This document shows, in pieces, positions 6,241 through 49,157 of a DNA stretch of 64,000 nucleotides. The stretch's first letter is position 1. Each line of letters starts with the position of its first letter. The stretch spans positions 94,984,001 to 95,048,000 of the forward strand of contig NC_043005.1 in NCBI RefSeq assembly GCF_006345805.1, read 5' to 3'. The notes beneath the pieces are model-generated. The model saw only the letters and a list, made by a program, of their open reading frames with translations. It did no database searches and was not told where the DNA came from. The position numbers and the translations under genes are program-made. The DNA comes from Octopus sinensis (taxonomy: Eukaryota).

Positions 6241-7820
6241 AGTAGTTTTATTTTTATAGAGTGCTTTCACTTCACTACCGAACGCAGCCCTGTGTGCCTT
6301 AGGTATGTGCTGTGATTTGTTGTGATGCTCTGATGGTTATTGTATGGAAAGTGCTCTGCGTAGGATGTGTGCAGTGCCTAGTAGTGCAATTTTCTGTATG
6401 TTATATGTGTTTGTAAGACCTGGTGTTTTTTTTATGTATTTGTCTGAATATTTTTTATCATGCCTAATGCACCTACTATGATAGGAATTGTTTCTGTTTT
6501 TAGATTCCACATTCTGGTTATCTCTATTTTCAGGTCTTTGTATTTTGAAAGTTTCTCCATTTCTTTTAGAGACACGTTGCCATCTGCCGGTATTGATACA
6601 TCAATTAGAAAGCATTTTTTTTCTTCATGAACTCTGACAACTATATCTGGTCTGTTGGCCTTAATTTCTCTATCTGTGTGTATTGGCATATCCCAGAGTA
6701 TGGTTGCTTTCTCGTTTTCTGTGTCCTTTTCTGGTGTGTGCCTATACCATCTTTTTTCTGTTGTTATTCCATAATGTTGGCATAGCTTCCAGTGTATGTA
6801 GGTTCCAACTCTGTCATGTCTGTGAATATATTCCTTCTTAGCCAGGACTGGGCAGCCAGAGATAATATGATTTATTGTTTCTTGTCCATCTTCACATATT
6901 CTGCAGTTACTTGTTATATTTCTTTTCATTACATGTTTTTGGTAATTTCTGGTGGGGAGGCTTTGGTCTTGTGCTGCAATTAAAAATCCCTCTGTCTCTG
7001 CTTTGAGTCCTGAGCTTCTCAACCATTGCTGGGATTTTTCTTTGTCTATTTCTTTTGCGTTTAGTTTAGTCCAGTATTTACCATGAAGGGGCTTTACTTG
7101 CCATCGTTTTATCATGGTTCGTTGCTGTTCTATTTTTAGTTTGGATTCATTTGTTTTATAGCTTTTTGTTGTTTCTTCTTCTTTTCTTCTTCTTCTTCTT
7201 CTTCTTCTTCTTCTTCTTCTCTTCTTTTCTTCTTTCTTCTTCTTCTTCTTCTTCTTCTTCATTTTATTAGGTGGTATGATTTCTTGTTTGTATTTGTCAG
7301 CTTCCTTAAATACTGAGAACAGTTTTTTGTTTTGCTCGTGTTTTGCCGCTATTTGTATCAGCTTTCCTTCCTTCTGAAGTAGATATTTTTGCAGTCCTAT
7401 GGTGGTTATTTTATAGTAGTTTTCCAGCTGTATAAGGCCTCTACCACCTTCTATACGTTGTATATATAGTCTTTCTATGTCAGATTTTGAGTGATGCATC
7501 CTAGATCCTGTCATTATTTTCCTTGTTTTCCTATCTATTTTGGTCAGTTCATTTAGTGTCCAGTTAAGGGGACAGCTAAAGTGTTAATACCTATTATCTT
7601 GTTTTTAGCATTGAGCTCTGTTTTTAGTATTGATCTAACTCGTCTATAATATTCTTTTTTTATTTTCTCTTTCATTTGTGTGTGTTGTGTCTTATCTAGT
7701 TCATGGATTCCTAAGTATTTGTAAGTTTGGCTTTGGTCTAATTCTTTTATTTCATTGGTTTTATCTAGTGTGATGTTGTTACTCTTGACTAGTTTTCCTC
7801 TTTTCATGGTTACTTTGGGG

Positions 7821-8430: not shown

Positions 8431-8655
8431 GCCGTTAATAACACACGTATTTAGCTTTCTATTAAACATCCAGTGTCTCTGTTTGATCACATCCGTATTC
8501 GTTTGATATTTACTGTTTTAACAGTAACAGCCTTTAGTTTTAATAGTCATTGGTTAATATAGATCAGATCACGCGTGCGCCATTTTAAAATTACTGGCTG
8601 CACAAAACAGAGTGAAAGACAGATAATGAAAGAAAATATATGTGTGCAACAGAAA
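8431..8655 (+). repeat. About 225-bp direct duplicate of 11456-11682
   Basis: Near-identical from gccgttaataacac to gcaacagaaa, with a few substitutions and one 2-nt indel. Confidence 0.9.
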
Positions 8656-9789
8656 TGCTAATAATAAACTACAAAAACAAACGCAAAAATTAAAAACCTT
8701 ATCAAACAAAACCACAAACCTGTAAGCCCGCCATTAAGCTACTAATGAGCCATGGTTTACAAATACAATTGTAAACGAGCAAGTTATAAACTTCACAAAT
8801 AAGTTTGTTATATTTGACCGCACAACTGCAGTACATCGCACAGTCCAAACGAAATCTGATAAGAAAAAGTTGTTAAACATGGCAGTACCCCAGCACTGAA
8901 GGCGGAGCCTCAGCATGGCTGCGCTCTAATAATTGAAACAAGTAAAAGCAGATAAAAAAGCAATTCTATCAAAATACAGAATTTGTGGAAGTCATAAACA
9001 TGATAAACTCACAAGATGATCATAGTTTCTCCATCTTAGTAAAAATTTGTAAGTTCTTTATCTTTGTAAGAAGGCTTAAAAGCTATTTATGAACTAATTT
9101 CTCTTGGATTAATATTCATCCAAACCAAGAATTTGAAGGAGATGATATCAAAGAAGAATTAATCATTTTATAGGTAGCATAATAAATTGGTAAATATTAA
9201 AGGTCTCTTTGTAGTTATTCAAATTTTTACTGTTTTCATTCGTGAAGCGCGTAGTAAATTGGTCTGTATCAAAGCCACCGTTGTTCTCATTAAAAACCTA
9301 TATTCATAATTAACCATAAGATTAAAAGAAAGGTCATTGTTGAGGTCATTTTAATAAATTCATTACAATGATTAATTCTCCCTTTGGTGTCAATTCCTGC
9401 AAACTGTTGGTTAAGTTCAGTCGAGAGAAAGAACAAGATACTGTAACACCCATTACGAGGGACCACACACTTTATAAAGGTGCTATTTAACCATTATTAG
9501 TCAAAGGTCCTGTTCTAGTAATTTATTTCATGAAGCATCAGGGTCTTCAACGTAAAGAATTTCAGTGACATTACTACAACGTGTCTATGAGCTGAACAAA
9601 AAGGTTCTTTCTCTATTAAAATACGAATATGCGAAGTGAAAAAGTGGGGGTAAATATGCAGAATATCAAACAATGTTTTTTTTTTTGTTTTTGCTCCAAT
9701 CAAAAAAATGTTATTACAAAGTGGGTTAAAAATATTTATTCTTGGAGTGCAAAAGCAAATATTAAAGTTAAATGTTAAATTTCTGAATA

Positions 9790-24013: not shown

Positions 24014-24044
<31 letters not shown>

Positions 24045-24050
24045 TGTATG

Positions 24051-24096
<46 letters not shown>

Positions 24097-24125
24097 CGAG
24101 AAAGAAGCAACAAGAATGGATAGGT

Positions 24126-24216
24126 TTTTAGTACAATCGTTTCATACAAGGACAGGCTTTATTAAAAGTTGTAAAAATTACAGCATATAAACGTGTCCCG
24201 TACTCATCAGCTAAAA
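24126..24216 (-). ncRNA. Type I hammerhead ribozyme, intact (inverted twin of 24633-24723)
   Basis: Exact reverse complement of 24633-24723. Confidence 0.85.
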
Positions 24217-24632
24217 TACATGTGAGTTCTCTAGACATCCTAGTGGTTGAGGCTATACTCATGAAGTAATGTAGATAATTAAGTAACATAAACAGATTTC
24301 CAAAGTCCATTAAAGTTCTTTAAAGATGATGTACAGTCTTATCACAGATAAGATGTACAGTCTTATCACCTCGTTGTGATTAACAATGGATAAATTTGTC
24401 TTCTGTGAGTATGTAATCCCTCATCATATCTCTGGAAATTCATATGTGCTCTATGGATTAGGTCACCTTCTCTGTGATGCTATTAGAACTTTTTTAAAAT
24501 TCTGTGATAAGACTGTACATCATCTTTAAAGAACTTTAATGAACTTTGGAAATCTGTTTATGTTACTTAATTATCTACATTACTTCATGAGTATAGCCTC
24601 AACCACTAGGATGTCTAGAGAACTCACATGTA

Positions 24633-24723
24633 TTTTAGCTGATGAGTACGGGACACGTTTATATGCTGTAATTTTTACAACTTTTAATAAAGCCTGTCCT
24701 TGTATGAAACGATTGTACTAAAA
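24633..24723 (+). ncRNA. Type I hammerhead ribozyme with intact core and long stem II
   Basis: TTTTAG-CTGATGA-GTACGGGACA...TGTCCTTGTAT-GAAA-C-GATT-G-TA-CTAAAA. 6-bp stem I, about 10-bp stem II, GUA site (cut after 24717). Confidence 0.88.
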
Positions 24724-24874
24724 ACCTATCCATTCTTGTTGCTTCTTTCTCGCTTATAATCACCCCACATTACTGTATTGTTAAAACAGTATAGTTTTTT
24801 TTTTGGTGCATCTAAGTTAGGTACCATATTCAAGTAAATTCATTTAAATTAACTTGAATCTTTATTGCTTTTTG

Positions 24875-24964
<90 letters not shown>

Positions 24965-25688
24965 TTTACTTCAAACCTAACTTTAATTTCTTCTTGTGCT
25001 TCATTTTCTCTTGAAGCAGTTTTTTTTTTTTAATGCCTTATTTAAAATCAGGGTGGTGGGTTGTTGTCTATAAAATATATATATATGTATGTATATATAT
25101 ATATACATACACCAATGAACTTTGGTTGACTGCAGTATATTTCGTTTTATATATACTATCTTAGAATCCATACGAAACGACGGTATTCTTTTCTGCCCTC
25201 TTCAGTAATTCCTGATGTCTTTACTTCAAACCTAACTTTAATTTCTTCTTGTGCTTCATTTTCTCTTGAAGCAGTTTTTTTTTTTTTTTGCCCTTACTCT
25301 CATTTTCCTTTCACTGATTCACGTATTTCATTAGTTCTCTCTACCTCTCTTCTTTCCATCTCTCCTTCCTTACTCGCACTTTTTCTTTGTCTTTCACTAT
25401 TTCTTCTTTCCCTGTGTGCATTTCAGTGTCTGCCTGTCAGATTGCTGGATGACTTATGACACTCGTTCTTCTTCACACTCGGGGAATCACCCACCAACCA
25501 ATTTCTTTATGATATTTTAATCATTTATTTCACTTCGTTTCTCCCCTCTCAGCACACACACTGATTTCCCTTCCAACTAAACACAAAAGGTGAATGCACA
25601 GTCAAAGATTTTGACATATGACTTGAATAAGAAAATTACTGAGACAGTTGTTGAGTATGTATTACGCACGCATGCGTGCGTTTGTGCA

Positions 25689-25719
<31 letters not shown>

Positions 25720-26247
25720 CCACATGTATACATTTTAGAAATATACATTTAGGCTCGCTATTTAAATAGACCCATTGGTTAAACCTCTTCACTTCACTCA
25801 CCTGCTTCACTCACCTGCTAACCCACAATATCTACTGTAGCATATTCTTCTATTTATGAATATATTCTGTCCTTCCAAAAACATGTTTGTTTCATTTAAT
25901 GCCTTATTTAAAATCAGGGTGGTGGGTTGTTGTCTATAAAATATAAATATGAGTCCTACGATTTGAGGTAAACCATATAAAAGTCCTACGACAAAATATG
26001 CTTGAGAGCACCCCAACCCACCATATCTGAGGCCTTTTGCCTAAGTCAGAAATTAATAGCAATAATGCTAAATCAATGAAGGCATAAGATAATCTAAATT
26101 AGTTGGACGCTATGGTAGAGGTGATAGGGTTGTGGTGGTGGTGGTGGTGGTGGTGGCGCCGGCGGTGGTCGAGCAGTTGGAAACAATACCTCTTTTGGTG
26201 ATGTCATTAATGGAGGTGGTTAAGATTGCTTGTAAAGGTGGTGGAGG

Positions 26248-26278
<31 letters not shown>

Positions 26279-27126
26279 GCTGCTGCTGGTACCGGTGCTG
26301 GATGTGGTTCTAACGTAGTGGTGATTTTAGAAATCGTGGCAATTAATGGTTGCGATGGTGATTGTAGAGAAGACTTGTAGTGGTGGTGACGAAGGCGATG
26401 GCGAAAGTTATTGTAATAGTTGGGGTTATGGTGGGGATAGTGGTATAGCTAAGGATGGTGGTGGTGATGGGGATTGTGGTAACGGTTGTGTTGCTTGGGA
26501 GTGCTGGTGGTGGTGGTGGTGATGGGCGTGTTGTTTGTTACGGTAGAGTTTGTGTAGAGTGTGGACATTGTGTTAATGGTTGCTCTTATGGTTGTGGCAA
26601 TAGTTGCGATAGAGATCGTGGAGGGAAGTATCTGATATGTCCCTGTGGATGTTGTGAGTAGATGGATGGGTGAGTGGTTGAAATGACTGTTATTCGAGTT
26701 TCTATTCACAAAGATAAGGGCGGGAAAGGGGGAGTGAAGTATTTAATAGAAAATAAGGATCAGGAATGGGAATAAGGAATATAGTCATGTTATTGTATAA
26801 TTGTACATACATTAGTTCACACGCACACATGTATACTCCAAGTACACGTACAAACAGGCATACACACACGTATAGGTATAAACGCATACATGTATGCACA
26901 CGGGCACGTATAAAGATATGCGCACACATTCGCACACACACAAACATAGTCGCACACTCGGAAACATACAGATAAGTGTGCACGTATGTACACCAACACA
27001 TATACCCATGTACACATTATTATATCATTAGATACAAGTGCTTGAACACACACAGTCTTAATCATACTTCTTTTAAATCTGTTTTACACATCCACTCCAT
27101 GACACGGAAAACCTCTTTCTTTCTCA

Positions 27127-47895: not shown

Positions 47896-49157
47896 CGAGG
47901 GGCGTTCAATAAGTAATGCCCCTGACCCACTTCCCATAGCAGTAGAGCAACGAAACTTGGCACAGTTATTAGTCTTTTTCTACATAGGAACCACCCAGAG
48001 TTACGCATTTCTCCCATCGTTTGATGCGGCTCTGGAGACCGTTTTTGTAGAAGAACCCAGCTTGGTCCTCCAACCTCAACGTGACTTCAGAAATCAAGGC
48101 TGCATCATCTGGGAAACGCTTTCCTTTCAAAAACAACTTCATGATTGGGAAGAGGTGAAAATCAGAGGGTGCAAGGTCATAGCCATACGCCGGTGCTTCT
48201 GATCTGGCGACAAGCGAGTTGTGGACCGGAGCGTTGTCCTGCAGGAGGAGGATGCCTTTGCTGATCTTGCCCCACCTCTTGATTTTGATAACTTCTCTTA
48301 ATTTCCTCAAAAGTGAAGCATAATAGGCTCCTGCAATTGTGGTACCCTTTGCCAGGAAATCTGTCATCACTACTCCGTCCTGGTCCCAGAAGACTGTGAG
48401 CATGACCTTGCCAGCGGAGGGCTGCACCCTTGCATTCTTTGGAGGGGGTGAGTCACGGTGCTTCCACTGCATTGACTGGGATTTGGTCTCTGGATCATCG
48501 TGATGGACCCAGGTTTCATCCTGTGTAATCAGTCTTTTGAAAAATTTTGACTCATCTTCTTGGCACATCTCCAAATTCACCCTCGAGCACTCGACGCGTT
48601 CTTGCTTCTGGAAAGGCGTGAGCAACCTGGGAATCCATCTGGTAGACACCTTTTGCATATGCAAATGGTCATGAATGATAGTTTCCACAGACCCGGTTCT
48701 AATCTTGACCTCATGGGCTATTTGGCGAATAGTTATGCGTCGATCTTCCAAAATGGCAGCCTCAACTTGACGGACAGATGCCTCATCAATGGCAGAAGGG
48801 GGCGACCAGATCAGGGAGCTGTTTCCACAGAGTTACGACCATGTTTGAATTCACGATGCCAGCGTTTTACAAGGTCATATGATGGGGCATCATCACCATA
48901 AGTTACTTTCAATTCATCAAAAGTCTCCCGTGGTGTGCGTCCTTTCAAATACAAAAACCGGATCACTGCTCGACACTCAACAGGCTCCATTTCACACTTG
49001 ACTCGGTTCAAACACCTGTAAATCAGAAACCACAATTAATTCAGAGCTGTAATTTGCCACTTACTCTATAGAGATATAAATGATTGCACATGCAAAATTT
49101 CAGCTAGATCAAACAACTGCAAGTGGGTCAGAGGCATTACTTATTGAACGTCCCTCG
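47896..49157 (-). mobile_element. Full-length mariner (DD34D, irritans-like) with an inactivated transposase
   Basis: 37-bp TIRs with 2 mismatches (CGAGGGGCGTTCAATAAGTAATGCCCCTGACCCACTT), TA duplication at 47894-47895 and 49158-49159. Motifs WIPRLL, QDETW, QDNAP, DLAPSDF. In-frame stop after SVETAP, a frameshift, and loss of the HPPYSP segment. Confidence 0.95.

What the first reader, a model, noticed from the sequence alone, without database searches (positions are those of the whole stretch)
24091..24758. Young inverted pair of intact hammerheads pointing outward
Seen: 258-bp arms with one mismatch, each with a complete ribozyme and a stem II arm of about 60 nt. A transcript from either strand contains one sense ribozyme plus its antisense copy upstream. 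Inference: folding competition between a long dsRNA hairpin (ADAR/Dicer substrate, ribozyme off) and self-cleavage. This is the best candidate for recent activity.
Basis: partly seen in the sequence, partly recalled or inferred. Interest (0 to 1): 0.7.

Follow-up and report, generated by a model that had tools for sequence, protein, structure and literature searches.

The report
Head-to-head Penelope retrotransposon insertion
The mirror-image pair of hammerhead ribozyme motifs is one ordinary short copy of a very young, abundant Penelope-like jumping gene, which lands in TA repeats mostly as two back-to-back arms that end at two different fixed points, likely because both cut ends of the target DNA start a copy.

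Summary
Observation confirmed: 258-bp arms, one mismatch, a type I hammerhead in each, predicted cut 24717/24718. The locus (24091-24874) is a 5'-truncated, non-coding insertion of a 4.65-kb Penelope-like element with Hydra-clade protein motifs. A 34-mer of its ribozyme occurs 1,774 times in the genome. On the first 153 Mb of contig C1, 50 of 66 insertions are outward-pointing inverted pairs and none points inward, so the arrangement is the family's normal insertion product. It is in print for Penelope-like elements, opposite-strand hammerhead pairs included. Recent activity is supported for the family. A folding switch is not: the hairpin (-475 kcal/mol) buries a ribozyme fold of -10.5. One sharper result: 48 of 49 resolvable pairs have one arm ending at site A and the other at site B about 115 nt downstream, with either arm the longer. 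This likely reflects priming from both target ends at two template start sites. The scan noted this two-site rule before in non-coding repeats of this genome. No excess of copies starts at the ribozyme cut site. New family of a known kind.

The parts
24016..24094 (.). (TATG)n then (TA)n microsatellite, left half of the target site
   Evidence: sequence; 50 of 50 A ends and 27 of 27 B ends caught by the motif search are followed by TA-rich runs
24091..24348 (-). Inverted 5'-truncated copy of the element's terminal repeat, ending at site A (no tail); carries the one private substitution at 24307
24126..24216 (-). Type I hammerhead motif, left copy; predicted cut 24132/24131
24349..24366 (.). Head-to-head junction: 18-nt insert; 24352-24369 repeats 24328-24345 and its last three bases (CAC) are also the first three of the right copy
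   Evidence: sequence
24367..24874 (+). Direct 5'-truncated copy of the terminal repeat, ending at site B (with tail)
24633..24723 (+). Type I hammerhead motif, right copy: 6-bp stem I, 60-nt stem II, 2-bp stem III with self-complementary loop; predicted cut 24717/24718
24759..24874 (+). Tail of about 115 nt between end sites A and B; in full units it is 5' leader and ends 54 nt before the ATG
24875..24961 (.). (TA)n microsatellite, right half of the target site
   Evidence: sequence

Best explanation
The locus is a short, non-coding, 5'-truncated insertion of a very young Penelope-like retrotransposon family, laid into a TA microsatellite as two head-to-head copies of its hammerhead-bearing end, likely because both ends of the cut target primed reverse transcription, one at each of two fixed start sites. 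Shown: family, copy number, coding parent, TA target, outward orientation, one A end plus one B end. Inferred: the element's GIY-YIG endonuclease cuts (TA)n; one 3' end primes at site B and the other at site A, each next to a short TA run in the RNA that could pair with the target; both cDNAs stop early and are joined head to head by microhomology or short templated fill-in; the template is not ended at the ribozyme cut site (uncut tandem RNA, or a re-ligated circle). The two ribozymes are passengers. In a read-through transcript the upstream antisense arm would pair with the second arm before its ribozyme is made, so the ribozyme would be off.
For: Copies: 40 of 42 scored hits identical over 255 nt, the window's own among them; 1,774 exact 34-mer matches, control 0. 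[quoted passage not shown] Architecture: of 66 loci on C1 1-153.5 Mb, 50 inverted outward, 0 inward, 16 of one orientation; 48 of 49 resolvable pairs have one A and one B end, 1 has A at both ends, 1 runs out of the fetched region. Two further pairs (L145, L147) and one with a very short arm (L118) are also A+B. A arm longer in 18, B arm longer in 16, within 10 nt in 14 of 48. Junctions show 1-10 nt overlaps or inserts, several visibly templated; symmetric junctions sit on short palindromes. Similar joints with inserts appear in contigs of runs X15 and X16. Print: inverted truncated copies and a one-sided tail are typical of these elements (PMC8557442); in vitro a Penelope-like protein cuts and extends both strands and starts at two internal sites that bound the tail (PMC11167929).
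Against: No tree against named clade members was built. Pfam gives only a weak RT hit (E=0.0087, below cut-off) and nothing relevant for the full protein. None of the 20 long loci fetched held a complete uninterrupted ORF of the window's exact subfamily; the 947-aa copy belongs to the 92%-identical subfamily and starts at an inversion junction. The two-end priming step rests on genomic patterns only. 10 of 48 pairs break within 1 nt of each other (0.4 expected), which also fits fold-back. The 66 loci come from one contig and were chosen by a motif spanning the ribozyme.
Confidence: 0.9

Rival explanations
1. Same element, but the second arm arises by self-priming or fold-back of the first cDNA (or on an antisense template), as proposed for rotifer Penelopes.
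For: 10 of 48 pairs share the same break within 1 nt, against 0.4 in shuffles; palindromic centres; break points correlate (Spearman 0.48); hypothesis in PMC3846280 (passages).
Against: Fold-back from a cDNA begun at B can only give an A arm that is shorter or equal, yet the A arm is longer in 18 of 48; fold-back from A cannot supply the tail (inference). Two like-polarity cDNA ends can anneal at equal positions only on a palindrome, which also explains part of the equal breaks.
Confidence: 0.25
2. The pair is a selected RNA switch or dsRNA trigger (ADAR/Dicer substrate against self-cleavage) of the host.
For: A transcript through the locus would form a 258-bp duplex. Hundreds of such palindromes are expected genome-wide (extrapolated).
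Against: Hairpin outweighs the ribozyme fold by over 400 kcal/mol; the arrangement is the default insertion product; the locus is too young to show selection; no host exon was identified at the site.
Confidence: 0.04
3. A stand-alone non-coding retrozyme (tandem 150-1000 nt unit, circular RNA).
For: Type I hammerhead with short palindromic stem III; one locus (L038) has two ends in a 622-nt direct tandem.
Against: Copies extend for variable lengths into an RT-endonuclease ORF at 90-99% identity; no fixed short monomer.
Confidence: 0.03
4. Long-read palindrome artefact of the assembly.
For: Near-perfect palindromes are a known long-read artefact (own knowledge); no contig listed spans this exact junction.
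Against: An artefact would mirror the flank too; here the arms end at two different fixed sites, sit in TA runs and have locus-specific junctions, and contigs of other runs hold such joints.
Confidence: 0.02

Closest known systems
Hydra clade of C-terminal EN+ Penelope-like elements (Craig et al. 2021, PMC8557442), including Hydra-1_Obim of Octopus bimaculoides and Penelope-13_HM
   Same: RWK, DKT, CxCx5C linker, CxxC and CxH around the conserved E and N, no CCHH pair inside GIY-YIG, (TA)n target, hammerhead near the 3' end; Penelope-13_HM is listed with an inverted 5'-truncated copy.
   Different: Unit 4.65 kb against mostly under 3 kb; two Asn-rich inserts and a 1.5-kb 3' region; tail about 115 nt against 30-40; 60-nt stem II; the hammerhead listed for Hydra-1_Obim is a different sequence by eye, so this is another family.
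PAc, Poseidon element of Anolis carolinensis (Frangieh et al. 2024, PMC11167929)
   Same: Two ends bounding a tail; AT-rich target; uncut RNA appears to be the template.
   Different: Here ribozyme and both ends lie upstream of the ATG (in PAc they overlap or follow it), and both ends sit next to a short TA run that could pair with the target, whereas PAc starts at a site not homologous to the cut DNA.
Metazoan PLE hammerheads (Cervera and de la Pena 2014, PMC4209133)
   Same: Type I motif in the terminal repeat, short palindromic stem III, long stem II; the paper reports dual motifs 100-700 bp apart on opposite strands.
   Different: Stem II is much longer (60 nt) and begins with G-U rather than G-C.
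Adineta vaga Penelope elements (Arkhipova et al. 2013, PMC3846280)
   Same: Head-to-head inverted repeats, palindromic junctions, optional tail, Asn-rich inserts in the ORF.
   Different: Low copy there; explained there by self-priming, which the arm-length symmetry here fits poorly.

Membership tests
EN+ Penelope-like element | Single ORF with RT and GIY-YIG endonuclease | tested here: met
   947-aa and 1105-aa natural ORFs with RT motifs (FDI, PMGS, YRDD, FLD) and IY..YIG..R..E..N; weak RVT_1; Atlas neighbours carry RVT_1 and PF26215
EN+ Penelope-like element | Partial tandems forming pseudo-LTRs, 5' truncation, inverted 5' copy | tested here: met
   L059, L071, L076, L099, L142; 50 of 66 inverted
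EN+ Penelope-like element | Tail at one end only | tested here: met
   48 of 49 pairs; length about 115 nt, longer than the 30-40 nt in print
EN+ Penelope-like element | Hammerhead motif in the terminal repeat | tested here: met
Hydra clade | RWK, DKT, CxCx5C, CxxC and CxH, no CCHH | tested here: met
   IRWKT, ADKTG, CKCRIKSKC, CQLC, CVH in P0001; conserved columns in alignment A1
Hydra clade | (TA)n insertion preference | tested here: met
Hydra clade | Generally short (<3 kb); typical rather than defining | tested here: not met
   4,650-nt unit; extra length is Asn-rich inserts and 3' region
Hydra clade | RT tree placement with named Hydra members | not tested
Type I hammerhead ribozyme | Core CUGANGA, GAAA, NUH and three helices | tested here: met
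   90 of 90 cells paired and two compensatory stem I pairs against a sister family, one event in two rows
Type I hammerhead ribozyme | Self-cleavage | not testable with these tools
   monomer fold has ensemble probability 5e-5; needs an assay
Non-LTR retrozyme | Non-coding fixed monomer in tandem, no autonomous body | tested here: not met
   copies run into the coding unit

The most novel reading that the evidence does not exclude
In an autonomous, currently spreading Hydra-clade element nearly every head-to-head insertion uses each of two start sites exactly once, which would mean that a protein dimer primes reverse transcription from both ends of a double-strand cut with a fixed division of labour, making two-ended priming the normal integration route of Penelope-like elements and the source of hundreds of new genomic palindromes.
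Probability: 0.5. Interest if true: 0.55.

Novelty: new member of a known kind. Interest (0 to 1): 0.3.

Why it matters
As reported, it is ordinary: the pair is the textbook footprint of a Penelope-like insertion. Its value is as a test bed. How these elements form inverted copies and one-sided tails is listed as open in PMC8557442. A young, high-copy family with its own enzyme and a 48-of-49 end rule gives a sharp prediction for an in vitro assay. The many fresh palindromes could also supply dsRNA in an animal with heavy RNA editing, but that is untested.

Tried and rejected
Rfam found no hammerhead. Pfam on full proteins and PDB sequence search gave nothing useful. Test for ribozyme-cut templates: the motif just 3' of the cut occurs 1,848 times against 1,774 for the motif spanning it; none of the three extra C1 loci starts at the cut; pairs with both arms ending within about 12 nt of the cut number 6, against 7 and 2 at two control anchors. 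Two joints near the cut in run X15 prompted this test and are explained by the GTAC palindrome. Expression: no RNA holder listed on record; contigs of guessed-RNA runs cover the element in pieces and often end in TA runs, so they show no element transcript, strand, intron or cut end. An empty allele could not be tested because contigs break at the microsatellites. No host exon identified around the site. Sequence look-up in earlier findings gave nothing. A first count of flanks had a faulty pattern and was redone. Searches for a printed two-ended priming model found none in the held library; subscription papers, such as Arkhipova 2006, were not searchable.

Full report
OBSERVATION. The inverted repeat is real: arms 24091-24348 and 24501-24758, 258 nt, 152 nt apart, with one mismatch. 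The left arm carries the private base: all 71 motif hits in the C1 loci have the right arm's letter. A descriptor scan of the whole window found two hammerheads, one per arm. Rfam finds no hammerhead family here.

THE LOCUS IS ONE COPY OF A YOUNG REPEAT. The right arm matches 40 scored places at 100% over 255 nt, the window's own included, out of 737 candidates of which 40 were scored. A 34-mer across the ribozyme's 3' half occurs 864 + 910 = 1,774 times, control 0. Of the 30 loci fetched, 25 continue past the arm into a shared tail and 5 go straight into (TA)n. The right-hand copy is therefore 24367-24874 and the insertion about 780 bp between two TA runs. Among 50 C1 copies covering 24367-24758, 4 are at least 99% identical to the window, 23 at 97-99% and 23 below 97%, so there are at least two subfamilies (loop GAUU and GAUC).

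THE PARENT. Longer copies extend upstream into a 1.5-kb non-coding region and then an ORF. A protein search found many copies; I fetched 20 long ones. L060 reads 947 aa without a stop and a sister family 1,105 aa. L076 is a partial tandem with a period of 4,650 nt; its tail ends 54 nt before the ATG and the ribozyme core lies about 290 nt before it. [quoted passage not shown] Profile support is weak: RVT_1 at E=0.0087 on a fragment, nothing relevant on the whole protein, no PDB match; Atlas neighbours carry RVT_1 and PF26215. Two Asn-rich inserts are absent from the homologues; such inserts are described in rotifer Penelopes (PMC3846280, passages). The supplement of PMC8557442 lists Hydra-1_Obim (2,507 bp) with a different hammerhead (rows seen), so this is another family. 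None of the 20 long loci had a complete open ORF of the window's exact subfamily; frameshifts may be real or assembly indels. The host is probably an octopus (a label and earlier notes; inference). A repeat survey of O. vulgaris counts 336 recently active Penelope-like insertions (PMC13282606, passages).

THE OUTWARD PAIR IS THE NORMAL PRODUCT. The first 100 motif matches (C1, 1-153.5 Mb) fall into 66 loci; 31 are minus-then-plus pairs and none plus-then-minus, median spacing 664 nt against 570 here. I fetched all 66 and mapped them on a natural copy: 50 are inverted outward, 16 have one orientation, none is inward. This is in print: an inverted 5'-truncated copy and a tail at one end (PMC8557442), dual hammerheads 100-700 bp apart on opposite strands (PMC4209133, parts 1-2 of 4 read), head-to-head repeats with palindromic junctions (PMC3846280).

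THE END RULE. Arms end at one of two sites, A (24758) or B (24874). Of 49 resolvable C1 pairs, 48 have one A and one B, and 1 (L099, which passes through a full unit) has two A; L112 runs out of the region. The window, L118, L145 and L147 are also A+B. Single-orientation loci end at A in 11 and at B in 5, L118 among the 5. The A arm is longer in 18, the B arm in 16, and 14 of 48 break within 10 nt of each other (1.5 expected; 10 within 1 nt, 0.4 expected). Junctions have short overlaps or inserts; the window's insert repeats 18 adjacent bases. Motif-caught ends are followed by TA-rich runs in 50 of 50 (A) and 27 of 27 (B) cases, and in the template both sites are followed by a short TA run.

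MECHANISM. Frangieh et al. showed in vitro that a Poseidon protein cuts and extends both strands, starts at two internal sites that bound the tail, is predicted to be a dimer and does not need ribozyme cleavage (PMC11167929, parts 1-2 of 4 read); they do not discuss inverted copies. The simplest reading here is that both target ends prime, one at A and one at B, and that the two truncated cDNAs are joined head to head. This predicts outward orientation, one end of each kind and either arm longer, all seen. Fold-back explains equal breaks but not the 18 longer A arms. I put about 0.6 on two-ended priming as the main route; it is inferred, not shown. Both sites lie 3' of the ribozyme cut and copies do not pile up at the cut, so the template is uncut or re-ligated RNA. 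I found no printed statement of this model, within the limits of the library. Earlier notes of this scan report the same two-site rule for non-coding repeats of this genome; I saw them after and did not check their loci.

THE RIBOZYME. It looks maintained in the family: against a sister family all 90 cells pair and two stem I pairs change on both sides, though this is one event among six related rows. As a monomer it is weak in silico (fold -10.5 kcal/mol, probability 5e-5), and its loop is self-complementary (duplex -5.8; -10.0 for GAUC), which fits the dimer model for such motifs (PMC4209133). An antisense copy cannot be a dimer partner. In a read-through transcript the duplex is -414 to -498 kcal/mol and covers every ribozyme base, so there is no real competition. 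Transcription of this locus is not shown.

VERDICT. Observation confirmed, interpretation partly supported. The locus is a dead-on-arrival fragment of an active Hydra-clade Penelope-like family: a new member of a known kind. Interest 0.3, carried by the end rule rather than by the ribozyme pair. The preprint 10.64898/2026.07.22.740005 (part 1 of 5 read) served only for the retrozyme definition; its supplements are closed.

Noticed in passing
L077:7787 and L078:8123, 2667: Sister Hydra-clade family (68% protein identity, 1,105-aa frame) with a covarying hammerhead of the same design.
   Followed up: partly
L074:530, 1124, 1725 (-) and 2578 (+): A different hammerhead in a roughly 600-nt tandem with an inverted copy, retrozyme-like, next to a copy of this element.
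   Followed up: no
L069:2060 (+) and L061:1246 (-): Two further unrelated hammerhead motifs near copies of this element.
   Followed up: no
L032:3445-9116: Near-perfect 5.6-kb palindrome of this family, one A end and one B end.
   Followed up: partly
L143:5105-7072 and L038:5713-6977: Internally deleted tandem derivative (most of the ORF missing) and a 622-nt direct tandem of the end; possible starts of non-autonomous retrozyme-like units.
   Followed up: no
L034 about 8560-8760: Long pyrimidine tract ending in CAG in the element's 3' region, about 530 nt before the ribozyme; could be a 3' splice site.
   Followed up: no
window 24960-25037 / 25215-25292 and 25019-25084 / 25885-25950: Two short local duplications (97% and 94%) in the right flank, starting at the end of the TA run.
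   Followed up: no
window 26110-26600 (-): Thr/Pro-rich low-complexity reading frames, partly covered by contigs of run X10; possibly a mucin-like exon.
   Followed up: no
window 47969-48832 (-) and 6432-7583 (-): A mariner-type transposase fragment and a LINE reverse transcriptase C-terminal fragment (labels from recall, not searched).
   Followed up: no
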